A stretch of 32,000 nt of DNA from Synechococcus sp. A15-24 (GCF_014280195.1 NZ_CP047960.1:930001-962000); one strand, 5' to 3'. Positions 15,319 through 31,176 are shown, counted from the stretch's first letter. A program made the numbers and translations. The notes: generated by a model not told the origin, from the sequence alone.

Positions 15319-15936
15319 TCATGGTCCCAAAAAAGACATAAGCTTGATGCAAGCCCTCAGCCAGGCGTCATCGTCATCACCGTCCTGGGGACCTCCGATG
15401 CTGCTCAGTCGTTGCAGCGCGCTTTGGATCTCATGGGTTTCGTAGCCGAGGGTCTCCAGTGTTGCGATGAGGTCAGGAGGAACAGAATCCACCTGATTGA
15501 GATCTGGATCGATGGAACCATCGCTGTCCACCAGCCGAGTGCGTAGCTCCAGAGCAAGACGTTCAGCGGTTCGTTTGCCCACTCCTTTTGCTCTGCAGAG
15601 GGTGTTGATGTCGGAGTGGACCAGAGCCCTTACAAGTTCGTTTGGCTTACAGGCATCGAGTAAGGACAATCCGGCCTGAGGCCCCACACCGCTCACTTGG
15701 ATCAGCTCCCTGAACAGGTCCCGTTCAGCCACTTGCAGAAATCCGAACAGTTGAAGGCTGTCAGCACTGACCACTTGATGAATCCAGAATTCATGGACTT
15801 TTCCAGTTGACAGAGTTTGCCAGTCCCGTTGAACGAGATAAACCTCGTAGCCGATGCCGCCACAACCAATCAGAACAAGGTTGCGTGACCTGCGTTGGTC
15901 CCGATGCTGGATCTCACCCTTCAGCCAGCCAATCAT
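15319..15936 (-). CDS. ruvA: Holliday junction branch-migration complex subunit RuvA
   Basis: MIGWLKGEI...GIGYEV...LFGF...ERDLFRELIQVSGVGPQAGLSLL...LCRAKGVGKRTAERL: OB domain, two HhH motifs and a C-terminal domain III. Confidence 0.93.
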   Translation of the reverse strand: MIGWLKGEIQHRDQRRSRNLVLIGCGGIGYEVYLVQRDWQTLSTGKVHEFWIHQVVSADSLQLFGFLQVAERDLFRELIQVSGVGPQAGLSLLDACKPNELVRALVHSDINTLCRAKGVGKRTAERLALELRTRLVDSDGSIDPDLNQVDSVPPDLIATLETLGYETHEIQSALQRLSSIGGPQDGDDDDAWLRACIKLMSFLGP

Positions 15937-16017
15937 TGCTTGAACTCAATCAATGGATCGTAAACGTGTCGAATCGGGTTTTAATTGAGCTTCAGGTTAA
16001 CAAGTGCTTGCTGAAGC

Positions 16018-16045
16018 TTGACGCTTGAAGGCCAAGACCTAAAAT
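16018..16045 (+). promoter_or_regulatory. Putative sigma70-type promoter for the island mrp operon
   Basis: TTGACG (16018-16023), a 16-nt spacer, then TAAAAT (16040-16045). A GGGAG Shine-Dalgarno-like element lies at 16046-16050, ahead of the ATG at 16063. The element is very close to the start codon, so the leader would be very short. Motif match only. Confidence 0.3.
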
Positions 16046-16062
16046 GGGAGAACGGCTCCACC

Positions 16063-16410
16063 ATGATGGAATTAACTCCTGAAAAAATAAGACTTATTCC
16101 GATGGTCGCCTTGATCATCATTGGCTGTTTCGGATTGTTGAATTCAAAATCGATTCTGCGCTCACTTTTTTCCCTCGACGTCATTGACACTGCGACAATC
16201 AGCATTTTTGTTTTGATCGCCGCCTCTGGCGGAGCGCAAACTCCGATTGTTGCAGAGAGTCGCTACAGCCAGTATTCGGATCCTTACCCACAAGCAATTA
16301 TTCTGACTGCCATTGTGATTGGTTTTGCAACGCAGGCTTTGCTCTGTGCGATTGCTTTGCGTTTGGGGCGTCAATCCCCAATGCTTCGCTATAGGAACCT
16401 AGAGAAGTGA
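16063..16410 (+). CDS. mrpC: Mrp/Mnh cation:proton antiporter subunit C (NuoK-like)
   Basis: Three TM helices. DPYPQAIILTAIVIGFATQALL matches the MnhC/NuoK motif (DPLPQALVLTAIVI.F). The likely start is ATG 16063 (MMELTPEK), preceded by GGGAG. Confidence 0.85.
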   Translation: MMELTPEKIRLIPMVALIIIGCFGLLNSKSILRSLFSLDVIDTATISIFVLIAASGGAQTPIVAESRYSQYSDPYPQAIILTAIVIGFATQALLCAIALRLGRQSPMLRYRNLEK

Positions 16411-17948
16411 TGGATTCTCAAATTCTTTTGCCGGCTTTGATTTTTTTGCCTGCAGCGCTGGGTTTTTTGGGATGTGTTCTTCCCAGAATTGTTTTCCCAG
16501 TAAGTGTGGCGATGCTTCTTGCGTATGCCTTCCTGTCTCAAAACCTGATCGGTTCCGGAGTCTCTTACGTCTTCACTTTGGTTGGTGAAGGAGGTATTCA
16601 ATTCTCTATTGATTTGTATACGTTTCCGCTCGTCTTCGGAAGCTCGATCACACTATTAATCTGCTTTGGTCTTTTTTATCGGCGATTCTCTCACTACTTT
16701 TATCAAGTCTGCTTGGTTCTTTTCACTGCATTGTTGATTGCCTTCAGCACAGTTGATCTCGTTAGCATGTTTATTGCTCTCGAATTGGTTGGGTTCGCTG
16801 CATTTTTATTGATTGCCGATCGTAGTGATAAAAAATCACTTTTCCATGCTTTTCAGTACTTGATAGGCGGAGGCCTTGCAATGCTGATCTACCTCATTGG
16901 TGTTGTGCAGGCTTTTACATACACAGGGTCTTTTTTGTTGACTGATCTTGTTCGAGCCCCTGAAACGGCTTTGTGTTTGATCGTTGCGGGGCTTCTCACA
17001 AAATCAGGAGTCTTTTTGTGTGGTTTGTGGGTCCCAAACATCTATTCACACGCTAACTGTCAATCCTCTGCTGTTCTGTCGGGTTGTGTGACCTGTGCCG
17101 GCATTGCTCCGATTGCACGCATGAGTCAGATTCTGATTCCGATCGGTGACTCAATGGTTGTTATCGGTGTCGTCAGTGCTGTTGTGGCGGCAATTTATGC
17201 GGTTTTTGAACGAGAGAGTGGTCGTGCTTTGGGGTGGAGCTCTGTTTCACAACTTGGAATTGCAATACTTTCACCCACATATGCTTGTGCATATGCCATG
17301 CAACATGGAATTTGCAAAGCACTTCTCTTCTCAACTCTTCACACCAAAGATCGCTCTAAACTGAGTGACGACAGCGTCAGCCACTTACACAATCAATTGG
17401 AGAATGTCCCATCTCTTCCAGTGGAGGAGTTCATCCGTGTGATTGTGTTTGTTGTCGCAAGTCTTTCGATCATGGGCTTTCCATATTTAAGCGGTTTCAT
17501 TACCAAGAATTGGGTTAAAACAGATTTACCCTATGAAGCTAAGATCATTTACACAACGGCTGCTTTATTAACATCAACCGTTTATGCTCGCTTGATTTTT
17601 GATAGAGTTTCTAATTTTATTGACCATCAACAGCCTCAGACTGTTTTGGCACTTAGACGAATTAGCCTTAACATAATTGATGTGCTGTCGACTCCCAGGC
17701 TATGGATCTTGTTGGTATCAATAATTTCTCTTATATACTTTTCTTTTGTTGATACTACTTTATATTCAACCCCATCAATTCGCTCAGCAATTGTTTCAGC
17801 CATTCTTGGTGGGATTCTGTTTATATCAGTGGTCGGAATTCAAGCCGACGAATTTGTAAAGCCTATCACTCGCACACTTGATCTCGTTGGTGCACCGTTC
17901 CTTGTTGCAGCCTTGCTACTTGCCAACCTTCTATACCTAAAAATCTGA
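16410..17948 (+). CDS. mrpD: Mrp/Mnh antiporter subunit D (NuoM/N-type proton-conducting antiporter-like subunit), divergent
   Basis: About 512 aa, polytopic. TM5-like Glu (FIALELVGFAAFLLI), TM7-like Lys (LLTKSGVFLCGLWVPNIY) and SQLG (WSSVSQLGIA) are typical of the NuoL/M/N/MrpA/D family. The usual APTPVSALLH stretch is degenerate (HANCQSSAVLSG). The ATG overlaps the mrpC stop (TGATG). Confidence 0.85.
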   Translation: MDSQILLPALIFLPAALGFLGCVLPRIVFPVSVAMLLAYAFLSQNLIGSGVSYVFTLVGEGGIQFSIDLYTFPLVFGSSITLLICFGLFYRRFSHYFYQVCLVLFTALLIAFSTVDLVSMFIALELVGFAAFLLIADRSDKKSLFHAFQYLIGGGLAMLIYLIGVVQAFTYTGSFLLTDLVRAPETALCLIVAGLLTKSGVFLCGLWVPNIYSHANCQSSAVLSGCVTCAGIAPIARMSQILIPIGDSMVVIGVVSAVVAAIYAVFERESGRALGWSSVSQLGIAILSPTYACAYAMQHGICKALLFSTLHTKDRSKLSDDSVSHLHNQLENVPSLPVEEFIRVIVFVVASLSIMGFPYLSGFITKNWVKTDLPYEAKIIYTTAALLTSTVYARLIFDRVSNFIDHQQPQTVLALRRISLNIIDVLSTPRLWILLVSIISLIYFSFVDTTLYSTPSIRSAIVSAILGGILFISVVGIQADEFVKPITRTLDLVGAPFLVAALLLANLLYLKI

Positions 17949-18385
17949 TGACCAATTTTATTCGACTTTCTATTCTGTTGCTTTTCCGACTTTTATGTTG
18001 GTGTCTAGTGACCTCAAGCTTTGAATCAAGTAATATCATTTTTGGCCTCGTTGTTTGCGTATTGATCCCATTTGGTGATTTTCGTAAACTTCAACTCAAG
18101 GCTTTAATTCCTGAGCTCTTGCTGACATTGCGTCTTCCATTTGATATGCTGAAAGAAAGTATTCAATTGATTCTGATTCAACATCCCATTGATCTATTTG
18201 TTCATGAGAAGGTTAGTTCTAGAACACGAAATGGTTCTAGATTTGCCGAGTTCTTGGATTTATTTCGAATCACTTTTACCCCAATGTCTCTTGTTTTACG
18301 CAGGATTGACATTGATCAGTGGAGAGTCCATCTAGTTGGTTCGTCACAATCGGATTATGATCAGAATGTGAGGGATACGTTATGA
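17948..18385 (+). CDS. mrpE: Mrp/Mnh antiporter subunit E (tentative)
   Basis: 145 aa with two N-terminal TM helices followed by a soluble domain, which is MnhE-like in size and topology. Its position between the D and F subunits fits, and the start overlaps the mrpD stop (TGATG). Sequence similarity is weak by eye. Confidence 0.6.
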   Translation: MTNFIRLSILLLFRLLCWCLVTSSFESSNIIFGLVVCVLIPFGDFRKLQLKALIPELLLTLRLPFDMLKESIQLILIQHPIDLFVHEKVSSRTRNGSRFAEFLDLFRITFTPMSLVLRRIDIDQWRVHLVGSSQSDYDQNVRDTL

Positions 18386-18660
18386 AAAATATTGATCTCG
18401 TACCCCTCGAGATTATTGAATACAGCATCATTTATATGATGCTGTTGATCAGTATGATTCCAGTTGTTGCTATTTCAAGGACGACTAATACTCCTGAAAG
18501 AATAGCTTATGCTTCAAGTTTTGGCAGTAAACTTGCTTTTATTGTTATTGCAGCAGGTATCTTCAGAGGTGATTGGATGATTGGTTGTATTGGTGCCTTC
18601 ATTCTTATTGTTGGTGATGCTGGCATGTTGATTCTTTCTCTTTTGGAGTTGAAAATCTAA
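18382..18660 (+). CDS. mrpF: Mrp/Mnh antiporter subunit F (tentative)
   Basis: 92 aa, three TM helices. TNTPERIAYASSFGSK resembles the MnhF GPT..DR..A.D motif. ATGA overlap with mrpE. Confidence 0.6.
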   Translation: MKNIDLVPLEIIEYSIIYMMLLISMIPVVAISRTTNTPERIAYASSFGSKLAFIVIAAGIFRGDWMIGCIGAFILIVGDAGMLILSLLELKI

Positions 18661-18927
18661 ATGTTAAATCTACTTTCATTCGCAATTCTTTTTATCGGCT
18701 TAATTTTTTGGCTATGGGGCACATTGCCTATTGTTAATCGAGAACATTCAATATTTTATAAGCTACATACTCTTACAGTTTCAGATAGTGTTGGTTCACT
18801 CCTAATTCTTCTGGCCTTGTTGATTCGTGCTCCGCAATATTGGCCTATTTTTTTAGTAACGGCAATCTCTTTATCACTTTGGAATACTGTTTTTAGTTAC
18901 ATTATTGGTAACATCTCTAATCGTTAA
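18661..18927 (+). CDS. mrpG: Mrp/Mnh antiporter subunit G
   Basis: 88 aa, three TM helices. FYKLHTLTVSDSVGSLLILLAL resembles the MnhG Y.RLHA..K..TLG motif. It starts immediately after the mrpF stop. Confidence 0.68.
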   Translation: MLNLLSFAILFIGLIFWLWGTLPIVNREHSIFYKLHTLTVSDSVGSLLILLALLIRAPQYWPIFLVTAISLSLWNTVFSYIIGNISNR

Positions 18928-19472
18928 TGATGATTGATTTTCTAAGTACAGCTCTGCTCCTTCCGTTCGAGCTTCTACTTCCCATACTTGGCATCCTTCT
19001 AATTCAATCACAATCTCCAATAAACAGTTTAATTTATAGATCATTTTTGGGTAGCATTGCTGCTTTGATTTATGCATTAATTGGTGCACCTGACGTTGCA
19101 CTCACCGAAGTTATGGTAGGGACTCTACTGTCCTCGCTGATTTATATTGTTACAATACGCTCTTGCTATACAATTGTAATTATCGTCGATACAAATAATC
19201 CTCCGCACAAAAATATAAAAGATTGCTTGAAGTTAATTTTTGACGAACTGCATTTAAAAATTGAATACCAGTCAGAGGTCTTCACAGATTCTTGCGCAGA
19301 TAATTTGGTTTTTCTTTCTTCAGCCAAGTCATCAGGTTCACCTCATGCATTGATTCACAATTCCACCTGTTTCTTTGAAGTCCAATCTTTACTCGATGAT
19401 GTCACTCTGACAGACTCTAGTAAATTTCTGGAAGATAAAATTACTCTTTGTTTATTACCTTCTCGACCATGA
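18927..19472 (+). CDS. DUF4040 membrane protein (MrpA C-terminal / MbhD-like subunit) with a non-membrane C-terminal extension of about 100 aa
   Basis: The N-terminal about 80 aa has three TM helices and the motif GAPDVALTEVMVGT, characteristic of the MnhB-N/DUF4040 segment of MrpA. Residues from about 85 to 181 are hydrophilic with no recognised domain. TAATG overlap with mrpG. Confidence 0.72.
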   Translation: MMIDFLSTALLLPFELLLPILGILLIQSQSPINSLIYRSFLGSIAALIYALIGAPDVALTEVMVGTLLSSLIYIVTIRSCYTIVIIVDTNNPPHKNIKDCLKLIFDELHLKIEYQSEVFTDSCADNLVFLSSAKSSGSPHALIHNSTCFFEVQSLLDDVTLTDSSKFLEDKITLCLLPSRP

Positions 19473-20182
19473 CTTCGAGCAAAACACCAAGACAATTTAC
19501 GCTTTCTTCAGAAGTAGCAAAGTCAACTGTCTATCTCGTAGCAATCACAGCCGTGATGCTGATGATCTTATTCACGCGAGACGATTCAGTTGCGCGAGAC
19601 ACAGAGCAGATTGTTGAATATCTTTCACAATATACGCAGATTCCAAACGCAGTGACTTCTGTCATTTTGGGTACAAGACTTTTTGATACGATTGGAGAAG
19701 TGACCGTATTTACAATTGCAGGTCTTGGAGTAAAAATCCTACTTCATGCAGAAGATTCAGAGGAAAAATTTGTTGGTATTAATGATCAAGTTATCCGAGT
19801 ACTGCTCGATTTCGCTGCATTACTAAGCTGCTTTCTAGCGATTGATCTTGCAGTCAAAGGTCATTTAACTCCTGGAGGTGGCTTTGCCTCAGGAGTTGCT
19901 GGTGCAACATCGATTACTATTTTGATGATTACTGGACGAATTCAAAAGGTTGAGGCGTTTTACTTTGGTAGTAATTCTCCTGCTCTTGAAAAAGTAGCCG
20001 TTATTGTTTTTATGCTGGTTGCACTCGCAACTTTTAGCTCTTTCTTACTTCCACAGTCTGTCTTCGCCACAGTTCCACCTACAATTTATATTCCACTATT
20101 GAATATCGTTGCAGCCCTCAAAGTTACTATCGGCTCATGGTCTATTCTTCGCCTATTTATTGTGAAGAGAGGTGTCCTTTAA
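19469..20182 (+). CDS. mrpB: Mrp/Mnh antiporter subunit B (MnhB domain)
   Basis: NAVTSVILGTRLFDTIGEVTVFTIAGLGVKILL matches the MnhB motif (N.VTAIL.DYRG.DTLGE..V). Further TM helices include GHLTPGGGFASGV. ATG 19469 overlaps the previous stop (ATGA). Confidence 0.8.
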   Translation: MTSSKTPRQFTLSSEVAKSTVYLVAITAVMLMILFTRDDSVARDTEQIVEYLSQYTQIPNAVTSVILGTRLFDTIGEVTVFTIAGLGVKILLHAEDSEEKFVGINDQVIRVLLDFAALLSCFLAIDLAVKGHLTPGGGFASGVAGATSITILMITGRIQKVEAFYFGSNSPALEKVAVIVFMLVALATFSSFLLPQSVFATVPPTIYIPLLNIVAALKVTIGSWSILRLFIVKRGVL

Positions 20183-20184
20183 CG

Positions 20185-20940
20185 ATGTCATATCGAGAGA
20201 CTGATGATTGGTACTTCGGTGACTATAGCGGTCGTCTTCCAGGCCGATCTTATTCACTGCTTTTGAATAGCGTCATTATTACCCTCTTTGCTCAAATTGC
20301 ATTGACGACTGAGCCAACATTTGACACTCCATCAGGTCAAATATTTTTACGCTTTACTCTCAATATTATTGAACTTTTCTTCATTAGTGACTATATCGGC
20401 AAACTTGCCAACTCATGGGCTCAAATGGATTACTCTCTAAAGGGCCTTGTTTATAGCGCACTTTCGAGATATGCCTTGGTCGATTTATGCGTAGTCTTGA
20501 TTCTGCTTACCGATCTGTTTTCTAATGACTCTTTTGTTGTCATTGGTGTTTATGTCTTCAAAGCGCTAATATCTATTTATTTTTCAAGTTTTAGGCTGGT
20601 TTTGATGAGAGTTAGGTTCATTATTTTTGATTCCCCTGCATACACCTTCTTCCCGCTTGTTTTATTGTCGATTGTGACATATGTGATGGCATTTTGCATT
20701 TATCTTCTTGAAAGATCTAATGACTCTGCGCATTTTGGATCCATTGTACGAGCTTTTTGGTTTTCTATTGTCACGATGACCACGATTGGGTATGGTGATG
20801 TTACACCTACAACATCTCTTGGGAAAGTCCTTGCGATCATGTTTGGTATTGTTGGCATTGTTTGCGTCGCGTTGTTAACAGCTAACATTCTTGAGGCTAA
20901 TGCTAAGTTTAACGAGATTGAGTCAAGTGGAAAAATCTAG
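20185..20940 (+). CDS. Six-TM potassium channel (Kv-like ion-transport protein) with a TIGYGD selectivity filter
   Basis: Pore helix and filter FWFSIVTMTTIGYGDVTP. Five upstream hydrophobic segments are present. The S4-like segment FRLVLMRVRFIIF carries only three Arg. No RCK or CNBD domain. The ATG at 20185 lies 2 nt after the mrpB stop. Confidence 0.88.
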   Translation: MSYRETDDWYFGDYSGRLPGRSYSLLLNSVIITLFAQIALTTEPTFDTPSGQIFLRFTLNIIELFFISDYIGKLANSWAQMDYSLKGLVYSALSRYALVDLCVVLILLTDLFSNDSFVVIGVYVFKALISIYFSSFRLVLMRVRFIIFDSPAYTFFPLVLLSIVTYVMAFCIYLLERSNDSAHFGSIVRAFWFSIVTMTTIGYGDVTPTTSLGKVLAIMFGIVGIVCVALLTANILEANAKFNEIESSGKI

Positions 20941-21700
20941 TCCTTCCATTGCGCTTAATAATCAATATGGTGTTTCTATGCATTCACTCAATCATATATT
21001 AGATGTTGGAACTCCGTTTGTAATTTTTGAGGCCTATGTGTCTTCCTATCATAAATTTATCGACTTTATAAAATTTGGTTGGGGAAGTGCTTTGATAGAT
21101 CCTGAGTTTGAGTCGAAGAAGGAAATCTGTGAACGATTTGGGATTAAGCCTCTACTTGGTGGCACTTTTTTTGAGTATATGATTCATCATCATGGCTTTG
21201 CGGGCTTTGTGAAAAAAATTGAACAATATGGACTGCAATATGTTGAACTTAGTCGAGGCACAATTGATATTGATGACTCGTTGTATGCGTCCTATATTAA
21301 GCAACTTTCTTCAGACTATTACGTTATGAGTGAAGTGGGGAGGAAATCCTCAGACCCCTCCCAGGCCCTTGCTCCATCACAATGGCTTGCCCATTGTGAG
21401 CTCTCATCAGATGCAGGGGCTTCCTTAGTGGTACTTGAATCACGTGAGTCGGGTCGCTCGGGATATGTTTCTACTGGTGGCGATGTCAACGCGGTCATGC
21501 TTGATTCCATAAGCAATTCACTTCCCATCAACTCTCTACTGTTTGAGGCACCAATCAAGTCTGTTCAGACCTTTTTGATTAAACGTTATGGTGCATCGGT
21601 CAACCTGGGTAATCTTTCACTGGTTGATCTCTTAGCAGTTCAGTCACTACGTCTTGGGTTGCGTTCAGACACGCTGCTTGAATCCAAAGCAATATTTTAA
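20900..21700 (+). CDS. comA: (2R)-phospho-3-sulfolactate synthase ComA-family protein
   Basis: Block-by-block match to the remembered Methanocaldococcus ComA: IDFIKFGWGSA (DFVKFGWGTS), LLGGTFFEY (PGGTLFEY), VELSRGTIDI (VEISDGS), SEVGRK (EVGKK), DAGASLVVLESRESG (DAGADYVIIEGRESG), LFEAPIKSVQ...YGASVNLGN (IFEAPQKSQQ...FGSSVNLAN) and LRLGLRSDT (LRRGLRGDT). The start is uncertain (ATG 20900, GTG 20930 or ATG 20978). The first two overlap the end of the channel gene. Confidence 0.85.
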   Translation: MLSLTRLSQVEKSSPSIALNNQYGVSMHSLNHILDVGTPFVIFEAYVSSYHKFIDFIKFGWGSALIDPEFESKKEICERFGIKPLLGGTFFEYMIHHHGFAGFVKKIEQYGLQYVELSRGTIDIDDSLYASYIKQLSSDYYVMSEVGRKSSDPSQALAPSQWLAHCELSSDAGASLVVLESRESGRSGYVSTGGDVNAVMLDSISNSLPINSLLFEAPIKSVQTFLIKRYGASVNLGNLSLVDLLAVQSLRLGLRSDTLLESKAIF

Positions 21701-21729
21701 TATTTTTCTTTTTGACGTCAGCTAGCAGA

Positions 21730-21764
21730 TTGTCAATAGGCTTATTCTCGCCTATCATTATAAT
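21730..21764 (+). promoter_or_regulatory. Putative internal promoter of the island, upstream of the binding-protein/carrier pair
   Basis: This is the only sizeable intergenic gap in the island (21701-21785). It contains TTGTCA (21730-21735), a 17-nt spacer, TATCAT (21753-21758), and an adjacent TATAAT (21759-21764). The perfect palindrome TGACGTCA sits at 21713-21720. Motif match only. Confidence 0.3.
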
Positions 21765-21785
21765 GACCATTTCCTAGCTCTATTG

Positions 21786-22667
21786 ATGTCGCCTAAATGG
21801 CCAAAAGCATTCGTAAGGCATCTAATTGCTTTCACCTTGACCGTAGCATTATTGCAGGCATTGCCGGCTTTGGCTGCTGAAAATAGTTTCATAAATTCGA
21901 TTCAACAACGTGGATATTTAAAAGTCGGATTGCCACCATACAATACGCCTCCCGCATACTATATCGATAAAAAAACAGAAAAACTGCAAGGATATGATGT
22001 AGAGCTGGCCCGCGAACTTGCTGACAAGCTTGGCGTTGATCTTCAATTTGATAGAGAATCAAAAAGCTTTAATTCACTTGTAGAGCGTGTTGGTGCTGAC
22101 GATTTTGATCTAGCGATCGGCAAGCTGGGTCTCACTTATAATCGATTATTTGACGCATTTCCTGTCCAGTATTTGAGCTTCCGTCATGCTCTCCTCGCAG
22201 ATCGAAAGTTTATTTCTAGTCTAGGAGTCGATCCGGAAGATGATGGTTTTGGCGATGCGTTGAAAACTTCAAATATCCGCATTGGTTCTATTGAAAACTC
22301 AACTTGGGAAACTGAGGCGAAAGTTAACTTCCCAAACTGTAAATTTGTTGGCTACAAAAACTGGGAGGATGCTCAGAAGGCTTTGTTGGCTGTTGACCCC
22401 AAAACCAAAAAATCAGCTATCGATGCAATTTATCGTGATGCCACTGAGATCAAGCCAATTGTTTATAAAGATCCTGATTTATCGCTTAAATACGTCCCTG
22501 TTCTTTTTGACGATATTATTGATCGAAAATCTATTTATCTTTCCGAGAAGGGCTACATAGGATTTTCGGACTTTCTTGATGTCTTTATTCGTCGAGAGTG
22601 GGGTGAGGTCAAGTCTGACGAACGCATCCTCAATGAATATCAAGCTTATTACCAGCCAGTATCTTGA
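21786..22667 (+). CDS. Periplasmic solute-binding protein, family 3 (polar amino acid / organic acid type) with a signal peptide
   Basis: The signal peptide is MSPKWPKAFVRHLIAFTLTVALLQALPALA-AE. The SBP_bac_3 pattern is YLKVGLPPYNTPPAYYIDKKTEKLQGYDVELARELADKLGV...FDLAIGKLGLTYNRLFD, including the T..R carboxylate-binding position. Confidence 0.85.
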   Translation: MSPKWPKAFVRHLIAFTLTVALLQALPALAAENSFINSIQQRGYLKVGLPPYNTPPAYYIDKKTEKLQGYDVELARELADKLGVDLQFDRESKSFNSLVERVGADDFDLAIGKLGLTYNRLFDAFPVQYLSFRHALLADRKFISSLGVDPEDDGFGDALKTSNIRIGSIENSTWETEAKVNFPNCKFVGYKNWEDAQKALLAVDPKTKKSAIDAIYRDATEIKPIVYKDPDLSLKYVPVLFDDIIDRKSIYLSEKGYIGFSDFLDVFIRREWGEVKSDERILNEYQAYYQPVS

Positions 22668-22672
22668 TCATT

Positions 22673-24061
22673 ATGCAGACATCTCAGGATTCCATGTCAT
22701 TTCTTGATCGGGTGTTCTCGATTCTCCCGGCACTTCGAAAACCTCGCAATTTCTTCCTTTATATACTTCCGTTTTCAATTGTTTTCGGAAGAGTTATACC
22801 AACACAGCTTGCTTCTGGTTTAAATGACGTTGGATTGGCAATGGTTCAACTCATTGCTTTCCCGGCGATTCCGCTTGTGTTGTCTGCCGTCATGATTTCA
22901 ATTGCTAATATTTTTAATGAAGACAATCGGTCGGCTCAGCGCCGGTTGCGCTTCTCCAGTCGTTTTGTGATTTCCTTGACGCTGACGATTCTCCTCGCAT
23001 CTTTGCTGGCACTTCTTCTTTCTATCTATCAGGCGCCTGGAGTTTTGTCACCGGATGGAAAACTATCAATTGGTCGTTTCATGCTTGATACGACTGATAT
23101 TCGCGTAGGGGGAGATGTCGCAGCTTCATCAATCTCTAGCGACTTCTGGATCGCAAAAATTGTTCCCAGCAATATTCTGGCTGATGCATCTGCTGGTCAG
23201 ACACTGAGAGTAATAAGTGGATCGGTTTTGGCTGGTTTGGCTATGTCCAGGTTGAATCCTGGTCTAACCCAACCACTGCTTTCGCTTCTTCGCAGTGTTA
23301 ACACTACGTCAGTGCAGGTTTTAAGCATTGTGCTAAATCTTGCTCCTCTTGTTCTTATCTGTCTGATCTCTGGCGCTGTTTCTACTATCAACGCTGAGAT
23401 TGTTGTTGCGCTTTTAAACTTTACAATCTGTGTTTTCCTGACGGCAATTGCCTCTCTTGGTATCTCAAGGCTTGTTTTTCGTCGTTTCACATCTACGCGT
23501 GAGCGAGCGACGACTGATGCAAATCCTGTGGACTCTGTCTTTCTTCTCAGTCTTTCCACTGGCAGCAGTATGACGGCATATCCACTGATGTTTGAGACCC
23601 TCAAGGGGATGGGGCGTGATGAATCCGAAGTTGAAGCATCAGCTTCTCTCAGCCTGTTAATCGCTCGTTTGGGTAATGTTACTTACAACGTCATCGCGAT
23701 TGTCTTTGCTCTCAATCTTTACGATGTGGGTCTTACACCTGTGCGTTTTTTGGAGGTCATTTTCCTTGGCGCTTTTACAGGGATTTCGGCTGCTGGGTTG
23801 ACTGGTGTTGCCACTGTTCCGACGATTGCTGTCGCGCTCTCTTATTTCCAAGTACCGATCCCGCCTGTTTTAGTTCTTCTCTTAGCGATTGATCCGATTC
23901 TTACGTTGCCGCGTGCTGCTACAACCGGTGTTTTGGCGATCGCGATTTCAGTGATTTCCTCAGCCAAGTCCAGCAACTCAGAGCTGTCTGATGTCTCATC
24001 CAGTTCCTCCCTTGGTCTGCTCAGCCAGCAGGGTGATGTTGCCTCACTAGAAGGTGGTTGA
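22673..24061 (+). CDS. Divergent dicarboxylate/amino acid:cation symporter (DAACS, GltP/DctA/EAAT-like) family carrier
   Basis: About 460 aa, polytopic. By-eye matches to DAACS landmarks: FPAIPLVLSAVMISI (PLVF.S...GI, TM3), HP1-like STGSSMTAYPLMFE (SSSA.TLP), HP2-like GISAAGLTGVATVP (S.G.AGIPG.G) and TM8-like LAIDPILTLPRAATTG (.D...D..RT..NV.GD). The NMDG motif is not conserved (ARLGNV). The start is ATG 22673 or 22694. The TTG at 22664 overlaps the binding-protein stop. Confidence 0.72.
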   Translation: MQTSQDSMSFLDRVFSILPALRKPRNFFLYILPFSIVFGRVIPTQLASGLNDVGLAMVQLIAFPAIPLVLSAVMISIANIFNEDNRSAQRRLRFSSRFVISLTLTILLASLLALLLSIYQAPGVLSPDGKLSIGRFMLDTTDIRVGGDVAASSISSDFWIAKIVPSNILADASAGQTLRVISGSVLAGLAMSRLNPGLTQPLLSLLRSVNTTSVQVLSIVLNLAPLVLICLISGAVSTINAEIVVALLNFTICVFLTAIASLGISRLVFRRFTSTRERATTDANPVDSVFLLSLSTGSSMTAYPLMFETLKGMGRDESEVEASASLSLLIARLGNVTYNVIAIVFALNLYDVGLTPVRFLEVIFLGAFTGISAAGLTGVATVPTIAVALSYFQVPIPPVLVLLLAIDPILTLPRAATTGVLAIAISVISSAKSSNSELSDVSSSSSLGLLSQQGDVASLEGG

Positions 24062-24513
24062 TGCAACCGATTCAGTCCCTATCTCGGATGATACGCCAGC
24101 TCTTGACTGTTGTGTCAGGGCTCTTGATCGTCGTAACCCTGTCGTCCTGCACCCTTCGCAATGAGCCGCCCCGCGCCATTGTCATTGAGGCCTTGCAGTC
24201 ACAGATCCAGACGACCCAGGTCTCCATTGCACAAAGTCTTGACTTGCAACCTGTGGCCTCTGCTCCTGCCGTCAGCCGGGTTCGCGTCGACCATCAAGAG
24301 GTCCTCAAGGTGGAGGGCGAGCGTTTCGTGCATTTAGAAGGCAGTTTTGACTGGCAGTTACCTCGGGACAGCGTCCGTGTGGACAGTGCCTTTGATCTCT
24401 ACCTCCAGCGCGGGTCGCACGGAGAAGGGTGGAGTCTTGCCAGGCCTGCAGTAAGCAATGGTGGCGAAGCCCAGCGTTGGCTGCTCTACCCCCTCGGCTT
24501 GCCCACGAGCTGA
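24061..24513 (+). CDS. Lipoprotein, unknown function (core-genome composition)
   Basis: The signal peptide carries the lipobox LLIVVTLSS-C. GC here is back to flank level. The ATG at 24061 shares its A with the TGA of the island carrier gene. Confidence 0.7.
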   Translation: MQPIQSLSRMIRQLLTVVSGLLIVVTLSSCTLRNEPPRAIVIEALQSQIQTTQVSIAQSLDLQPVASAPAVSRVRVDHQEVLKVEGERFVHLEGSFDWQLPRDSVRVDSAFDLYLQRGSHGEGWSLARPAVSNGGEAQRWLLYPLGLPTS

Positions 24514-24518
24514 TCTGA

Positions 24519-25406
24519 TCAGGCCTGACGGCTGGAGAGGCTGATAAAGGATGCACCCAGCACAAGCGCTGCACCACCACATGTGAATGCCGTAATTGAT
24601 TCGTTGAACCAGATCCACCCCCAGCTAGCAGCGAACAACACCTGGACGTAATTCAGCGACGTCGCCCTCGCCGCTGGCAGACAGCTCAGCCCCTTGGTCA
24701 CCCAGATCTGGCCGAGTTGAGTCAGCACACCGACTCCGAGCAACCAGATCCAATCCACCGCTGAAGGCCAGACCCCGATGTGCAGAACCATCGGCAGCGT
24801 GAGGGGAATCGAGACCACAGGGAAATAGAGAATGATCACCAAGGGGTGTTCCTTGGCCGATAAGCGTCGGACGCATACATATGCCAGAGCTGTAAATAAA
24901 GCTCCGCCCAGGGCTGTCAGCCCTGGGCGTAACGCCAGCCCGTTCTGGCCTGCGCCCAGCCATTCCGGTTGGATCACAAACACCACCCCGAGCAAGCCCA
25001 GCAGCACGGCCAAGCCAATGCGACGGCGCAGCCGTTCCCCCAGCAATAGCCAGGCCGCCGCTGCAGTGAATGTTGGGTAGGTGTACTGCAGGACCGTGGC
25101 TGATGCCAGCGGTAATGCAGTGATCGCCTCGAAGAAGCACAGCAGGGCAACGCTTCCACAGATGCCGCGTAGCAGCAGCAGGCGTCGGTTGTTCCCCAGG
25201 GGTTTGATCCCTCCAACCGCCATGGCTGTTCCCGTCAGGGCAATGCTCACAACGGATCGAACCAGCACGATCTCGCTGACGGGAATTCGTCCTCCCAGTT
25301 GTTTGACGCACACCGTCATCAGGCTGAAGGCAAGAGAGCTCAGAACCAGGGCCCTCGCTCCCTGCATCTCCTGGCGCTGCCACCAGGTCGACGTCTGTTC
25401 ATCCAT
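24519..25406 (-). CDS. DMT-superfamily (EamA-like) transporter
   Basis: Ten predicted TM helices arranged as two EamA-like repeats (ALVLSSLAFSLMTVCVKQL ...; ...LTQLGQIWVTKGL). The chosen start is MDEQTS (ATG at 25406), because the 25472 start would overlap dnaG. Confidence 0.85.
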   Translation of the reverse strand: MDEQTSTWWQRQEMQGARALVLSSLAFSLMTVCVKQLGGRIPVSEIVLVRSVVSIALTGTAMAVGGIKPLGNNRRLLLLRGICGSVALLCFFEAITALPLASATVLQYTYPTFTAAAAWLLLGERLRRRIGLAVLLGLLGVVFVIQPEWLGAGQNGLALRPGLTALGGALFTALAYVCVRRLSAKEHPLVIILYFPVVSIPLTLPMVLHIGVWPSAVDWIWLLGVGVLTQLGQIWVTKGLSCLPAARATSLNYVQVLFAASWGWIWFNESITAFTCGGAALVLGASFISLSSRQA

Positions 25407-25464
25407 GGTTGCGCTGGTGCTCCTGATGGGTGGACGCCGACCTGCGACTTCGCAGAATGGGTCC

Positions 25465-30677: not shown

Positions 30678-30678
30678 G

Positions 30679-31110
30679 TCAGAGCGGATGGATCACGTGG
30701 ATGGCCACCCCCCAGATCTGCACGTCACCGCATCGATGCAGCTCCAGGGGTGGGTAAGCGGGATTGGCGGCCTCCAAGCGCAGGCGGCCATGGTGCTGGA
30801 CCAGGCGTTTGAGGGTGAATTCCCCGTCCAGTACCGCCACCACCACCCGACCCGGCCGTGGATCCAGGCTGCGATCCACCACCAGCAGATCACCGTCGTG
30901 GATGCCGGCTCCGAGCATGGATTCGCCGCTGACGCGCAGAAAGAATGTGCTGGTGGGATGGCGGATCAGCTGGTCGTTGAGGTCGATCCCCACCTCCACG
31001 TAGTCATCGGCCGGCGAGGGGAAGCCGGCGGCCACCCGTTCGCCGGCCAGGGGAAGACTCAGGCGGGTTCGCCGGGGCTGCAGCGGAAGTGGCTGGTGGC
31101 GGACGTCCAT
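30679..31110 (-). CDS. umuD: UmuD / LexA-like S24 peptidase (Pol V accessory subunit)
   Basis: AGFPSPADDY, then the catalytic Ser in VSGESM and the Lys in GEFTLKRL. The start is taken at ATG 31110 (MDVRHQ...). The stop lies 1 nt before the umuC start. Confidence 0.9.
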   Translation of the reverse strand: MDVRHQPLPLQPRRTRLSLPLAGERVAAGFPSPADDYVEVGIDLNDQLIRHPTSTFFLRVSGESMLGAGIHDGDLLVVDRSLDPRPGRVVVAVLDGEFTLKRLVQHHGRLRLEAANPAYPPLELHRCGDVQIWGVAIHVIHPL

Positions 31111-31135
31111 CACGGGCAAGCAAGCCTGCTTGAAT

Positions 31136-31149
31136 AGTACTGATGTATT
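31136..31149. promoter_or_regulatory. Putative cyanobacterial-type LexA (SOS) box
   Basis: AGTACTGATGTATT compared with the remembered cyanobacterial consensus RGTAC-NNN-D-GTWC-B / AGTACWNWTGTACT shows one mismatch (the final arm is GTAT rather than GTAC). It lies 26 nt upstream of the umuD ATG and overlaps a TACTAT -10-like hexamer on the minus strand. Confidence 0.5.
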
Positions 31150-31176
31150 GGTCGCAGTGTGCTCGCTCCGGTGAGG

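What the first reader, a model, noticed from the sequence alone, without database searches (positions are those of the whole stretch)
20900..21700. Orphan phosphosulfolactate synthase (ComA) homologue in a cyanobacterial island
The ORF matches ComA block by block (see the feature evidence). ComA adds sulfite to PEP. It is the first step of coenzyme M biosynthesis in methanogens and of sulfolactate formation in Bacillus. Plant Hsa32 is a homologue tied to thermotolerance.

No comB (phosphatase) or comC partner is present in this window, and coenzyme M is not expected in a cyanobacterium. The product may therefore be sulfolactate or phosphosulfolactate used as a solute, a sulfite-detoxification product, or an exported sulfonate. 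The start codon is ambiguous and may overlap the channel gene by up to 41 nt.
Basis: partly seen in the sequence, partly recalled or inferred. Interest (0 to 1): 0.7.

Follow-up and report, generated by a model that had tools for sequence, protein, structure and literature searches.

The report
Sulfonate synthase within ion-transport island
A marine Synechococcus carries an intact phosphosulfolactate synthase gene on a foreign low-GC island that also occurs in Prochlorococcus, always placed between a sodium/proton antiporter operon plus potassium channel and a binding-protein-linked transporter, which suggests (but does not prove) that some of the ocean's most abundant phototrophs make a small sulfonate as part of ion or salt balance.

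Summary
Window 20927-21700 (+) encodes a full-length ComA-family protein: Pfam PF02679 E=9.5e-58, every family-invariant residue kept, and a model matching M. jannaschii ComA at TM 0.86. The window is Synechococcus sp. A15-24, and NCBI already names the gene 'phosphosulfolactate synthase'.

'Orphan' is only partly right. No comB or comC lies in the window, but literature lists comB as a universal single-copy cyanobacterial gene. ComA is also a fixed part of an 8.1-kb low-GC module (41.6% GC against 60-63% flanks): mrpCDEFG-mbhD-mrpB, K+ channel, ComA, periplasmic binding protein, divergent SDF transporter.

About 50 marine loci show the same order. They include a second Synechococcus insertion site and Prochlorococcus LLI, where an extra glyoxalase-fold (VOC) gene follows ComA. 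ComA is under purifying selection (dN/dS 0.08).

The best reading is that ComA makes phosphosulfolactate, probably converted to sulfolactate, as an N- and P-free organic anion tied to Na+/K+ homeostasis, and that the transporter pair recaptures it. The enzyme assignment is strong; the physiological role is inferred. I found no paper describing this module.

Verdict: a new variant of a known kind, of moderate interest.

The parts
15950..24061 (+). Low-GC island (8112 bp) holding the whole module. All 11 genes are on the + strand, overlapping or separated by at most 82 nt.
   Evidence: GC is 41.6% against 60.5% and 62.9% in the flanks; GC3 is 25-51% against 57-75%. No flanking repeats, tRNA or integrase. 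The same block sits at the same site in Synechococcus SAGs and metagenome contigs.
16018..16410 (+). mrpC (NuoK-like subunit). Likely start ATG 16063 or 16066.
   Evidence: PF00420 E=1.4e-17. Homologues are 114-115 aa. A promoter-like site at 16018-16045 is not above chance.
16407..17948 (+). mrpD, the only antiporter-like (NuoN/M-type) subunit of the module.
   Evidence: PF00361 E=1.7e-25. NCBIfam 'monovalent cation/H+ antiporter subunit D' NF005564, 205 bits, below its cut-off.
17948..18385 (+). mrpE-like subunit.
   Evidence: Weak PF01899 MNHE match, E=5e-4, below cut-off. Position is conserved in all loci.
18382..18660 (+). mrpF-like small membrane protein, assigned by position only.
   Evidence: No Pfam or NCBIfam hit. 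Conserved at 72-85% identity in the same slot in all loci.
18661..18927 (+). mrpG.
   Evidence: PF03334 PhaG_MnhG_YufB E=4.5e-14.
18927..19472 (+). MbhD-like subunit (equivalent to the C-terminal part of MrpA). No NuoL-like MrpA domain is present anywhere in the module.
   Evidence: PF13244 MbhD E=1.2e-14.
19448..20182 (+). mrpB (MbhE-like plus MnhB domain). Likely start ATG 19469, overlapping the previous stop by 4 nt.
   Evidence: PF04039 MnhB E=4.7e-13 and a weak PF20501 MbhE match. Start inferred from homologue alignment.
20137..20940 (+). Six-transmembrane-type K+ channel with a TIGYGD selectivity filter. Likely start ATG 20185 (251 aa).
   Evidence: PF07885 E=4.3e-18 and PF00520 E=3.2e-8. 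The filter is invariant in all module types. It is always the gene immediately upstream of ComA.
20927..21700 (+). ComA-family (2R)-phospho-3-sulfolactate synthase homologue, 257 aa from GTG 20927. Alternative start ATG 20978; longest ORF from TTG 20891.
   Evidence: PF02679 E=9.5e-58. Exact match to WP_186499234.1. All 45 columns that are at least 93% conserved are retained, including the equivalent of M. jannaschii K137. AlphaFold2 pLDDT 86 and Foldseek TM 0.86-0.88 to 1qwg. dN/dS 0.082.
21701..21782 (+). The only real spacer in the module, at the place where other versions carry the VOC gene. It contains a promoter-like match at 21730-21758.
   Evidence: Sequence. Promoter-like TTGTCA-17-TATCAT matches 10 of 12, but the number of such sites in the region is not above the shuffled expectation. 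No VOC remnant. No Rfam match.
21783..22667 (+). Periplasmic solute-binding protein (SBP_bac_3 type) with a signal peptide. Likely start ATG 21786. No ABC permease or ATPase partner is present.
   Evidence: PF00497 E=8.7e-11, N-lobe only. The clade is restricted to this module: 271 hits, the top 120 all at least 64% identical. Invariant R121 aligns with the carboxylate-binding Arg of amino-acid-binding proteins. The AlphaFold2 model was poor (pLDDT 59) and was not used.
22664..24061 (+). Highly divergent SDF (DAACS) family secondary transporter. Likely start ATG 22673, 5 nt after the binding-protein gene.
   Evidence: PF00375 E=1.4e-35. GltP and DctA models score only 60-63 bits. NMDGT is replaced by ARLGN; TM8 has Thr at the D394 position and keeps the R397-equivalent Arg. 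These changes are conserved in all module types. The clade is restricted to this module.
15319..15936 (-). ruvA, the left boundary gene (not part of the module). It is unusually divergent between genomes that carry the module.
   Evidence: Pfam RuvA domains. Identity is 45-66% where dnaE is 86-98%.
24058..24513 (+). Hypothetical gene at the right boundary (the ORF call is probably too long at its 5' end). It belongs to the host flank by composition.
   Evidence: GC 59%, GC3 67%. No Pfam or NCBIfam hit. It stays next to EamA in both insertion types. It is unrelated to the VOC gene.

Best explanation
Window 20927-21700 encodes a working ComA-family enzyme that adds sulfite to phosphoenolpyruvate to give (2R)-phospho-3-sulfolactate. 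It is one gene of an 8.1-kb, horizontally exchanged operon-like module found in a subset of marine Synechococcus and Prochlorococcus. The module comprises a minimal Mrp-type Na+/H+ antiporter (seven genes), a K+ channel, ComA, a periplasmic binding protein and a divergent SDF-family transporter.

Proposed mechanism: the antiporter expels Na+ and the channel admits K+. ComA, together with a phosphatase encoded elsewhere (most likely the core cyanobacterial ComB homologue), supplies sulfolactate. Sulfolactate is a nitrogen-free and phosphorus-free organic anion that could balance K+ charge or act as a compatible solute. The binding protein and SDF transporter would take the same anion, or a close analogue, back up from the periplasm or seawater.

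Shown here: family membership, fold, intact catalytic signature, purifying selection, invariant gene order across about 50 loci and two genera, and foreign composition.
Inferred: the substrates and product of the enzyme (from homology to the two named and solved enzymes), co-transcription (from overlaps and spacing), the ComB step (from literature), the counter-ion or solute role, and the recapture role of the transporter (from gene context and analogy).

My confidence in the parts: enzyme reaction about 0.8; functional linkage of ComA to the transport genes about 0.85; counter-ion or solute role about 0.3-0.35.
For: Enzyme:
- PF02679 E=9.5e-58.
- PDB 1u83 and 1qwg at E=1e-46 and 1e-39.
- All 45 near-invariant columns of a 122-sequence alignment that includes both solved enzymes are retained: K49, K64, E83, E107, E136, K140, E171, R173, E174, E207, N229, R242, R246.
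- AlphaFold2 pLDDT 86. Foldseek top hits 1qwg (TM 0.86-0.88, rmsd 2.0 A) and 1u83, with the next fold class about 15 orders of magnitude weaker in E-value.
- Median dN/dS 0.082 across 66 pairs, like its neighbours.

Linkage:
- Kch-ComA-(VOC)-SBP3-SDF downstream of mrpCDEFG-mbhD-mrpB in every picocyanobacterial locus long enough to show it: L001-L009, L011, 40 metagenome loci.
- This holds at three or more different chromosomal sites and at ComA identities down to 43-48%.
- Genes overlap or abut.
- The SBP3 and SDF clades exist only in this module.

Role:
- Mrp systems act in Na+ export and salt acclimation in cyanobacteria.
- Picocyanobacteria already use an anionic, N-free solute (glucosylglycerate) to balance K+ in N-poor water (PMC4390839).
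- The SDF protein keeps the Arg that binds the distal acid group in GltPh-type transporters but has Thr in place of the Asp that binds the alpha-amino group (residue roles from my knowledge of GltPh). This fits a hydroxy-acid-type anion.
- The binding protein has a signal peptide and many invariant basic residues.
Against: - No biochemical or expression data exist, and I found no metabolite report of sulfolactate in these strains.
- ComB was not verified in the A15-24 genome.
- The NCBIfam equivalog model for archaeal ComA is not reached (171.8 against 280 bits), so exact isofunctionality is not guaranteed.
- The ancestral partner gene (VOC) is missing from this version. The product may therefore differ between versions, or the final product may not be sulfolactate.
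- The binding protein also keeps a 'DAxxxD'-like motif typical of alpha-amino-acid binders. That would fit cysteate, aspartate or glutamate and sits uneasily with the transporter inference.
- One study argued that mrp clusters do not track salinity tolerance in marine Synechococcus (PMC7771541).
- Seawater salinity is stable, so the selective reason for an accessory ion-homeostasis module is unclear.
Confidence: 0.4

Rival explanations
1. ComA supplies the first step towards a different sulfonated end product, such as a sulfolactyl or sulfonate decoration of a lipid or envelope polymer, or a cofactor-like molecule. The co-located transporters are unrelated to the product's role or serve to supply substrates.
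For: In the sister lineage (Acidimicrobiales and other high-GC loci L012-L014, L053, L054, L070), ComA-VOC sits with a histidine phosphatase, an acyl-AMP or CoA ligase, a membrane acyltransferase (Acyl_transf_3) and GDSL hydrolases. This layout is typical of acylation of extracytoplasmic glycans. The VOC partner is homologous across phyla (36% identity, E=1e-29), so the lineage's ancestral chemistry goes beyond plain sulfolactate.
Against: None of the ligase or acyltransferase genes is in the picocyanobacterial module. The window version even lacks VOC. The only constant neighbours are ion and solute transporters.
Confidence: 0.15
2. Sulfite sink. ComA traps excess sulfite (from assimilatory sulfate reduction or stress) onto PEP as a detoxification step, and the product is disposed of or excreted.
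For: The chemistry of the family consumes sulfite (family assignment). Sulfite is an intermediate of cyanobacterial sulfate assimilation (general knowledge).
Against: Nothing in the module relates to sulfur assimilation or sulfite export. The constant partners are Na+/H+ and K+ systems plus an uptake-type transporter with a periplasmic binding protein. A detoxification gene would not be expected to keep this fixed linkage down to about 45% identity.
Confidence: 0.12
3. The enzyme has the ComA fold but a shifted specificity: another nucleophile or another enol-phosphate substrate. The product is then not phosphosulfolactate.
For: It scores below the NCBIfam equivalog cut-off (171.8 against 280 bits). 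The clade is isolated, with the next relatives at most 40% identical among 1.84 billion cluster representatives. It is only 36-37% identical to the two solved enzymes.
Against: Every near-invariant and every charged invariant position shared by the M. jannaschii and B. subtilis enzymes is retained. The backbone agrees at 2.0 A rmsd. No other reaction is known for this family, to my knowledge.
Confidence: 0.1
4. Catabolic or salvage use. The binding protein and SDF transporter import an external sulfonate (phosphosulfolactate, sulfolactate or cysteate released by other plankton), and ComA runs in reverse to give PEP plus sulfite. This has been suggested for ComA genes flanking a TTT transporter in SAR11.
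For: ComA is adjacent to an uptake-type system. The SAR11 suggestion is in PMC11796062. The binding protein has many invariant basic residues that could suit a polyanion.
Against: Phosphosulfolactate is not a known environmental metabolite. No kinase or dehydrogenase for sulfolactate is in the module. Sulfur is not limiting in seawater. Reversal of the reaction has not been shown, to my knowledge.
Confidence: 0.08
5. Decaying passenger gene in a transferred island, with no current function.
For: Foreign composition. Loss of the VOC partner.
Against: Intact reading frame in about 50 loci. dN/dS 0.08, with a maximum of 0.18. All catalytic-signature residues are kept. The 90% cluster has 128 members from many marine samples.
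Confidence: 0.02

Closest known systems
Methanocaldococcus jannaschii ComA, (2R)-phospho-3-sulfolactate synthase (PDB 1qwg), first step of coenzyme M biosynthesis
   Same: Same Pfam family, same (beta/alpha)8 fold (TM 0.86-0.88, rmsd 2.0 A), and same invariant residues, including the equivalent of K137.
   Different: Only 36% identical and below the archaeal equivalog cut-off. No comB, comC, comD or comE neighbours and no methanogenesis context. Embedded in an ion-transport operon instead.
Bacillus subtilis YitD, deposited as 'PSL synthase' (PDB 1u83), which with the ComB-like YitC is linked to sulfolactate in spores (the spore link is from my own knowledge)
   Same: A non-methanogen ComA whose end product is thought to be free sulfolactate rather than coenzyme M. 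It is the best PDB sequence match (E=7.6e-46). It groups with the sister clade of the module ComAs in a neighbour-joining tree.
   Different: In Bacillus the phosphatase gene is adjacent (from my own knowledge). Here no phosphatase is in the module, and the neighbours are transporters.
ComA-VOC gene pair of Acidimicrobiales and other actinobacteria (loci L012-L014, L053, L054, L070), uncharacterised
   Same: Nearest outgroup of the module ComAs (about 40% identity). The glyoxalase-fold partner is homologous to the one in the Prochlorococcus and type B Synechococcus modules.
   Different: Those loci add a histidine phosphatase, an acyl-AMP ligase and an acyltransferase, and have no Mrp, K+ channel, SBP or SDF genes. 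The window version has lost VOC.
Cyanobacterial Mrp (CPA3) Na+/H+ antiporter clusters (Anabaena mrpA, Aphanothece halophytica, Synechococcus PCC 7002), implicated in Na+ resistance and salt or alkaline tolerance
   Same: Same subunit families, and the same C-D-E-F-G-A-B gene order that I recall for cyanobacterial Mrp clusters. The physiological role in salt acclimation comes from PMC4390839 and PMC7264159.
   Different: Only one antiporter-like subunit and no NuoL-like MrpA domain. It resembles the membrane module of Mbh-type complexes. It is fused into one operon with a K+ channel, a sulfonate synthase and a solute transporter.
Glucosylglycerate as an anionic, nitrogen-free compatible solute and K+ counter-ion in marine picocyanobacteria
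   Same: The proposed role is the same: an organic anion that replaces glutamate in N-poor water (PMC4390839).
   Different: Different chemistry (a sulfonate against a glycosylated carboxylate). The role is demonstrated for glucosylglycerate and only inferred here.
Binding-protein-dependent secondary transporters that recapture leaked osmolytes (TeaABC TRAP system for ectoine; cyanobacterial Ggt ABC system for glucosylglycerol), both from my own knowledge
   Same: A periplasmic binding protein feeding an uptake system encoded next to, or co-regulated with, solute synthesis.
   Different: The membrane component here is SDF/DAACS, not TRAP, TTT or ABC. The binding protein is SBP_bac_3 type. I know of no characterised SBP-dependent SDF transporter.
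Plant HSA32 and bacterial XcbB1 (ComA homologues in thermotolerance and in bacterial coenzyme M synthesis), from my own knowledge
   Same: Same protein family.
   Different: No Xcb partners (fumarase-like, PLP-dependent enzyme) in the window. The mechanism of HSA32 is unknown, so no functional comparison is possible.

Membership tests
ComA / phosphosulfolactate synthase family (Pfam PF02679, EC 4.4.1.19) | Full-length match to the family profile above the curated threshold | tested here: met
   195.9 bits against a cut-off of 25.2, E=9.5e-58, profile positions 12-243 of 243.
ComA / phosphosulfolactate synthase family (Pfam PF02679, EC 4.4.1.19) | (beta/alpha)8 barrel like the solved enzymes | tested here: met
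   AlphaFold2 pLDDT 86.2, pTM 0.83. Foldseek: 1qwg TM 0.86-0.88, rmsd 2.0 A; 1u83 TM 0.76-0.86.
ComA / phosphosulfolactate synthase family (Pfam PF02679, EC 4.4.1.19) | Conserved active-site residues, including the Lys proposed as general acid (M. jannaschii K137; the role is recalled from Wise et al. 2003, and the paper is not held) | tested here: met
   K140 aligns with K137. All 45 columns that are at least 93% conserved are retained, and both solved enzymes share them.
ComA / phosphosulfolactate synthase family (Pfam PF02679, EC 4.4.1.19) | Catalysis of sulfite addition to PEP | not testable with these tools
   Needs an enzyme assay.
Archaeal ComA equivalog (NCBIfam TIGR03849) | Score above the equivalog cut-off | tested here: not met
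   171.8 bits against 280. It is a family member but not the archaeal coenzyme M isofunctional group as NCBI defines it.
Coenzyme M biosynthesis (archaeal ComABCDE or bacterial Xcb pathway) | Presence of the downstream pathway genes (comB, comC, comDE; or a fumarase-like XcbC1 and partners) with ComA | tested here: not met
   None is in the 32-kb window or in any module locus. The rest of the genome could not be searched.
Two-step sulfolactate synthesis (ComA plus ComB-type phosphatase, Bacillus type) | A phosphosulfolactate phosphatase in the same genome | not tested
   Not in the window.
Mrp (CPA3) multisubunit cation/proton antiporter | Subunits C, D, E, F, G, B and the MrpA C-terminal domain | tested here: met
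   Pfam hits for C, D, G, MbhD and MnhB. E is weak (E=5e-4). F is assigned by conserved position only.
Mrp (CPA3) multisubunit cation/proton antiporter | Two antiporter-like subunits (the NuoL-like MrpA N-terminal domain plus MrpD) | tested here: not met
   Only one Proton_antipo_M protein (16407-17948) is in the module. It is a minimal, Mbh-like variant.
SDF / DAACS transporters (Pfam PF00375) | Family profile match | tested here: met
   E=1.4e-35, 123.5 bits against 27.9.
SDF / DAACS transporters (Pfam PF00375) | NMDGT motif and TM8 Asp/Asn residues that form the Na+ and amino-group sites in GltPh and EAATs (roles from my own knowledge) | tested here: not met
   NMDGT is replaced by ARLGN; D394 becomes T; N401 becomes T; D405 becomes A. 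The R397-equivalent Arg is kept. These changes are conserved across module types.
Known binding-protein-dependent secondary transporters (TRAP, TTT) | DctP/TctC-type binding protein with DctQM/TctAB membrane parts | tested here: not met
   The binding protein is SBP_bac_3 and the membrane protein is SDF. Whether the two actually interact was not testable.

The most novel reading that the evidence does not exclude
The module is an undescribed, laterally exchanged 'sulfonate anion plus cation homeostasis' cassette. It would make a subset of Prochlorococcus and Synechococcus de novo producers of a C3 sulfonate (sulfolactate or a derivative). That would add picocyanobacteria to the sources of the marine sulfonate pool used by heterotrophs. 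Its SBP_bac_3-SDF pair would be the first binding-protein-dependent member of the SDF/DAACS transporter family.
Probability: 0.2. Interest if true: 0.75.

Novelty: new variant of a known kind. Interest (0 to 1): 0.55.

Why it matters
C2 and C3 sulfonates are a major currency between marine phytoplankton and heterotrophic bacteria, and their production is attributed mainly to eukaryotic algae. If the proposed role holds, three things follow.

- **A new sulfonate source.** A dedicated, selected sulfonate-synthesis gene in Prochlorococcus and Synechococcus lineages would point to a source of sulfolactate-type compounds in oligotrophic waters.
- **A nutrient-cheap anion.** It would show a way for nutrient-starved cells to build an organic anion from sulfate, which is unlimited in seawater, without spending nitrogen or phosphorus.
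- **A role for cyanobacterial ComB.** It would give a possible role to the long-unexplained, universally conserved ComB homologue of cyanobacteria, at least in strains that also carry ComA.

The case is directly testable because cultured carriers exist (A15-24, and A15-62 by its binding-protein annotation).

If the ion-homeostasis link is wrong, the finding reduces to an automatically annotated family member in a mobile island, which is of modest interest.

Tried and rejected
- **Phage origin of the low-GC island.** No ComA relative was found on IMG/VR viral contigs, so there is no support.
- **hyp151 (24058-24513) as a relocated VOC gene or module member.** It shows no similarity to VOC, has host-like GC and stays with EamA in both insertion types. 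Rejected.
- **VOC remnant in the ComA-SBP3 spacer or elsewhere in the window.** None; best E=0.17 at random places.
- **Riboswitch or other known RNA in the island.** No Rfam match at E<=1.
- **Mobile-element signatures.** No flanking direct or inverted repeats of note, no tRNA at the borders, no integrase.
- **Promoter and terminator scans.** Counts are not above the shuffled expectation, so no regulatory claim is made.
- **Ligand site of the binding protein from a structure model.** The AlphaFold2 model was too poor (pLDDT 59), so no fold search was run. Sequence-profile alignment to solved binders is reliable only for the N-lobe.
- **Distant relatives of the SBP3 and SDF genes as a clue to the substrate.** Both searches returned only the module's own clade.
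- **Low-GC marine ComA loci L061, L065, L066.** These have unrelated housekeeping contexts and are not informative.
- **Literature.** Ten searches found no paper linking ComA, phosphosulfolactate or sulfolactate synthesis to marine picocyanobacteria. The ComA structure paper is not held.
- **Not possible.** I could not search the rest of the A15-24 genome for comB or comC. I could not show an 'empty site' in Synechococcus genomes that lack the module.
Full report

Yes. An ORF on the + strand ends at 21700. Its product matches Pfam ComA (PF02679) over almost the whole profile, at E=9.5e-58 and 195.9 bits against a cut-off of 25.2. It also matches the two solved phosphosulfolactate synthases over nearly their full length: B. 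subtilis 1u83 at E=7.6e-46 and M. jannaschii 1qwg at E=5e-39.

Exact-sequence look-ups of DnaE, PAM68 and RuvA identify the window as the chromosome of Synechococcus sp. A15-24. The 257-aa product starting at GTG 20927 is identical to WP_186499234.1, which NCBI's pipeline already names 'phosphosulfolactate synthase'.

The start codon is genuinely ambiguous:
- TTG 20891 gives the longest ORF.
- GTG 20927 is NCBI's start and overlaps the channel gene by 14 nt.
- ATG 20978 is where conservation begins. It is also where the Prochlorococcus-type proteins start and where model confidence rises. Residues 1-17 of the 257-aa form have pLDDT below 50.

**2. The enzyme itself**

I aligned 122 sequences: the window protein, 119 homologues, and the printed residues of 1qwg and 1u83. 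The window protein keeps the consensus residue in all 45 columns that are at least 93% conserved. These include every invariant charged position: K49, K64, E83, E107, E136, K140, E171, R173, E174, E207, N229, R242 and R246. K140 aligns with M. jannaschii K137, which I recall from the structure paper as the proposed general acid; that paper is not held.

An AlphaFold2 model (pLDDT 86, pTM 0.83) is an eight-fold beta/alpha barrel. Its best Foldseek matches are 1qwg (TM 0.86-0.88, rmsd 2.0 A over 240 columns) and 1u83. The next fold class, the aldolases, is about 15 orders of magnitude weaker in E-value.

The protein does not reach NCBI's equivalog cut-off for archaeal ComA (171.8 against 280 bits). 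It is therefore a family member, but not demonstrably isofunctional with the coenzyme M enzyme.

The family is small. An exhaustive search of 1.84 billion cluster representatives found 953 clusters at E<=1e-3. The best hit is 49% identical and the next are at most 40%, so this is an isolated subfamily.

**3. The surroundings: not an orphan but a module**

The gene lies in an 8112-bp block (15950-24061) of 41.6% GC inside 60.5% and 62.9% GC flanks. GC3 is 25-51% in the block against 57-75% in the flanks.

All eleven genes of the block are on the + strand and overlap or abut. They are mrpC, mrpD, mrpE-like, mrpF-like, mrpG, an MbhD-like gene, mrpB, a six-transmembrane-type K+ channel with a TIGYGD filter, ComA, a signal-peptide-bearing SBP_bac_3 binding protein, and a divergent SDF-family transporter. 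The only real spacer is 82 nt, between ComA and the binding-protein gene.

The flanks are housekeeping genes: dnaE, PAM68 and ruvA on the left; a hypothetical gene, EamA, dnaG and umuDC on the right. No comB, comC or sulfur-metabolism gene is anywhere in the window. The block has no flanking repeats, tRNA, integrase or Rfam match.

**4. Comparative evidence**

A species-representative genome scan found the same block at the same ruvA | hyp-EamA-dnaG site in five marine Synechococcus single-cell genomes. Contig look-ups and a metagenome scan added 44 further picocyanobacterial loci: L007-L009, L011 and 40 of the 56 metagenome loci.

In every locus long enough to show it, ComA is preceded by the K+ channel and the mrp genes, and followed by the binding protein and the SDF gene. 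The versions are:
- **Type A:** no extra gene, ruvA | module | hyp. This includes the window; about 33 loci.
- **Type B:** Synechococcus-like flanks, but the module sits on the other side of ruvA (PAM68 | module | ruvA), with a 140-aa glyoxalase-fold (VOC) gene between ComA and the binding protein.
- **Type C:** about 29% GC. The neighbouring Pcb antenna protein falls in the same 90% cluster as those of Prochlorococcus NATL2A and MIT0801, so the host is a Prochlorococcus LLI genome. The module is at an unrelated site and carries VOC.
- **Type D:** 32-38% GC, with VOC; host not identified.

ComA identity between types falls to 43-56%, yet the gene order is unchanged.

In type A, median pairwise dN/dS is 0.082 for ComA. 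It is 0.086 for the channel, 0.078 for the binding protein and 0.073 for SDF, against 0.039 for dnaE. ComA is therefore maintained by selection even without VOC.

The binding-protein and SDF clades are found only in this module. The searches returned 271 and 265 hits respectively, and the best 120 of each are at least 64-65% identical. One of the binding-protein hits belongs to the cultured strain Synechococcus sp. A15-62.

**5. Origin of the ComA lineage**

In a neighbour-joining tree (no bootstrap support computed) the module ComAs form one clade. That clade is sister to a group containing B. subtilis YitD and actinobacterial proteins.

In Acidimicrobiales and other high-GC loci, ComA is likewise followed directly by a VOC gene. 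That gene is homologous to the picocyanobacterial one (36% identity, E=1e-29). A histidine phosphatase, an acyl-AMP/CoA ligase, an Acyl_transf_3 protein and GDSL hydrolases lie nearby.

ComA-VOC is therefore an old pair that type A has lost cleanly; no remnant is left in the window. The VOC protein has a structural-genomics homologue (3rri, E=1e-53) of unknown function.

**6. The missing phosphatase**

No phosphatase is in the module. [quoted passage not shown]

A ComB-type enzyme therefore probably exists in the core genome of A15-24. I could not verify this, because only the window is available.

**7. The transport genes**

*Mrp set.* It has a single antiporter-like subunit and no NuoL-like MrpA domain. 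It resembles the membrane module of Mbh-type complexes more than a canonical two-antiporter Mrp.

*SDF protein.* It aligns to solved aspartate transporters (E=1e-10). The NMDGT motif is replaced by ARLGN. In TM8 the Asp that binds the substrate amino group in GltPh is Thr. The Arg that binds the distal acidic group is kept. These features are conserved in types A, B and C. The residue roles come from my knowledge of GltPh and the EAATs. This pattern suggests an anionic substrate without an alpha-amino group, and altered ion coupling.

*Binding protein.* It keeps the Arg (R121, 'GLTYNR') that binds the ligand carboxylate in amino-acid binders. It also keeps an 'IDAIYRD' motif resembling the one whose last Asp binds the alpha-ammonium group. 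The C-lobe alignment is unreliable, however, and the structure model was poor.

The ligand is therefore a small acid, but I cannot say whether it is a hydroxy acid (sulfolactate, malate) or an amino acid (cysteate, aspartate).

**8. Most likely mechanism**

Shown:
- a selected, catalytically intact ComA-family gene;
- rigid linkage to Na+/H+ antiport, K+ channel and solute-uptake genes, across two genera and several insertion sites.

Inferred:
- ComA makes phosphosulfolactate from PEP and sulfite.
- A core phosphatase gives sulfolactate.
- This N- and P-free anion serves as a K+ counter-ion or compatible solute while Mrp expels Na+.
- The binding protein and SDF pair recapture the anion.

The precedents are the anionic solute glucosylglycerate, which balances K+ in N-poor picocyanobacteria, and the role of Mrp in cyanobacterial salt acclimation (PMC4390839; PMC7264159). 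From my own knowledge, osmolyte-recapture systems such as TeaABC and Ggt are a further precedent.

Points against:
- No metabolite or expression data exist.
- VOC has been lost in this version.
- The signals from the binding protein are mixed.
- One report found that mrp presence does not track salinity range in marine Synechococcus (PMC7771541).

I put the enzyme reaction at about 0.8, the functional linkage at about 0.85, and the counter-ion or solute role at about 0.3-0.35.

The rivals are a different sulfonated end product, a sulfite sink, shifted enzyme specificity, catabolic reversal as proposed for SAR11 (PMC11796062), and a decaying passenger gene. They are set out in the rival explanations section with their tests.

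**9. Comparison with what is known, and novelty**

The protein is a member of the ComA family: profile, fold and residues are all met. It is not filed under coenzyme M biosynthesis, because no pathway genes are present and the equivalog score is not met. It works most like the Bacillus YitD case, a ComA outside methanogenesis.

What is new is the context:
- a sulfonate synthase built into an ion-transport operon;
- carriage on a persistently low-GC cassette that recombines among Synechococcus and also occurs in Prochlorococcus;
- pairing with an SBP_bac_3-SDF couple that has no characterised counterpart.

Ten full-text searches found no description of this. The gene name itself is already in GenBank, so the bare identification is not new.

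**10. Verdict**

This is a new variant of a known kind. Interest is moderate (0.55): the enzymology is ordinary, but the module is unexpected and directly testable in cultured strains, and it bears on who makes sulfonates in the oligotrophic ocean.

Noticed in passing
L007 10707-11138; L011 7046-7468; L039 10735-11127; L012 8810-9223; L013 8726-9139; absent from window 21701-21782: A 137-143-aa glyoxalase-fold (VOC) gene directly follows ComA in the Prochlorococcus-type and type B Synechococcus modules. It does the same in Acidimicrobiales and other high-GC loci. The proteins are homologous (36% identity, E=1e-29) and match the uncharacterised PDB entry 3rri (E=1e-53). The window's type A module has lost the gene without trace. 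Its reaction is unknown.
   Followed up: partly
L012 6989-13512; L013 6210-12865; L014 454-7052: In Acidimicrobiales-type loci ComA-VOC sits with a histidine phosphatase (cobC/PGM-like), an acyl-AMP/CoA ligase, a membrane Acyl_transf_3 protein and two GDSL hydrolases. The layout looks like a cluster that attaches a sulfolactate-derived acyl group to an envelope polymer. It is uncharacterised as far as I could find.
   Followed up: partly
window 21783-24061; L007 11146-13300: The SBP_bac_3 binding-protein gene and the SDF transporter gene abut or overlap in all versions. There is no ABC permease or ATPase, and both clades occur only together. This may be a binding-protein-dependent SDF/DAACS transporter, a combination I do not know to be described.
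   Followed up: partly
window 16018-20182: The Mrp set has only one antiporter-like subunit (MrpD) and no NuoL-like MrpA domain. MbhD-like and MbhE+MnhB-like proteins take its place. It resembles the membrane module of Mbh-type respiratory complexes rather than a canonical Mrp.
   Followed up: partly
window 15319-15936 (ruvA); L018, L039, L045: ruvA next to the module is only 45-66% identical between genomes whose dnaE is 86-98% identical. The module is inserted on either side of ruvA in different lineages (type A and type B). ruvA and the downstream hypothetical gene seem to be dragged along in recombination events that swap module alleles.
   Followed up: partly
L015, L056 (mrpE-mrpB segment); L018: There is mosaic recombination inside the module. 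L015 and L056 are 95-98% identical to the window except for mrpE through mrpB (69-83%). L018 has dnaE and dnaG 98% identical to the window, but its module is only 70-84% identical.
   Followed up: no
window 15950-24061 and all Synechococcus module loci: The module keeps GC3 of about 25-45% in hosts with GC3 of 55-78%, although module proteins have diverged to 45-80% identity. There is no sign of amelioration. The source of the persistent low GC is unexplained. No ComA was found on viral contigs.
   Followed up: partly
L006 (JAAXIK010000309.1, 3.3 kb); proteins P0243, P0395: Short contigs or proteins carrying module genes at 67-79% identity to the window's versions are labelled Rubripirellula, Verrucomicrobiales and Paracoccaceae in MAG records. 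These are probably mis-binned picocyanobacterial contigs.
   Followed up: no
L055, L057, L058, L060-L068 (GC 24-28%): A separate group of marine low-GC bacteria carries a ComA homologue (about 32-41% identical) in housekeeping contexts, for example next to a DUF368-like membrane protein and uvrB-like genes. None of the module genes is present. The hosts were not identified.
   Followed up: partly
proteins P0470, P0489, P0496, P0502, P0549, P0556: Several ComA-family representatives are 500-966 aa long, with the ComA domain at the C-terminus. These are fusion proteins of unknown composition.
   Followed up: no
window 24519-25472 (-) and 25081-27516 (+): The mechanical ORF for dnaG overlaps the EamA gene by about 390 nt. 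The annotated homologue in L008 is 682 aa against 811 aa here, so the true dnaG start is further downstream. A strong terminator-like hairpin (11 pairs) on the minus strand at 24929-24905 lies inside the EamA ORF.
   Followed up: no
window 29397-31245 (-): A umuC (IMS family) and umuD-like (Peptidase_S24) pair lies downstream of dnaG and an SBF-family transporter. The same pair is found in L008.
   Followed up: no
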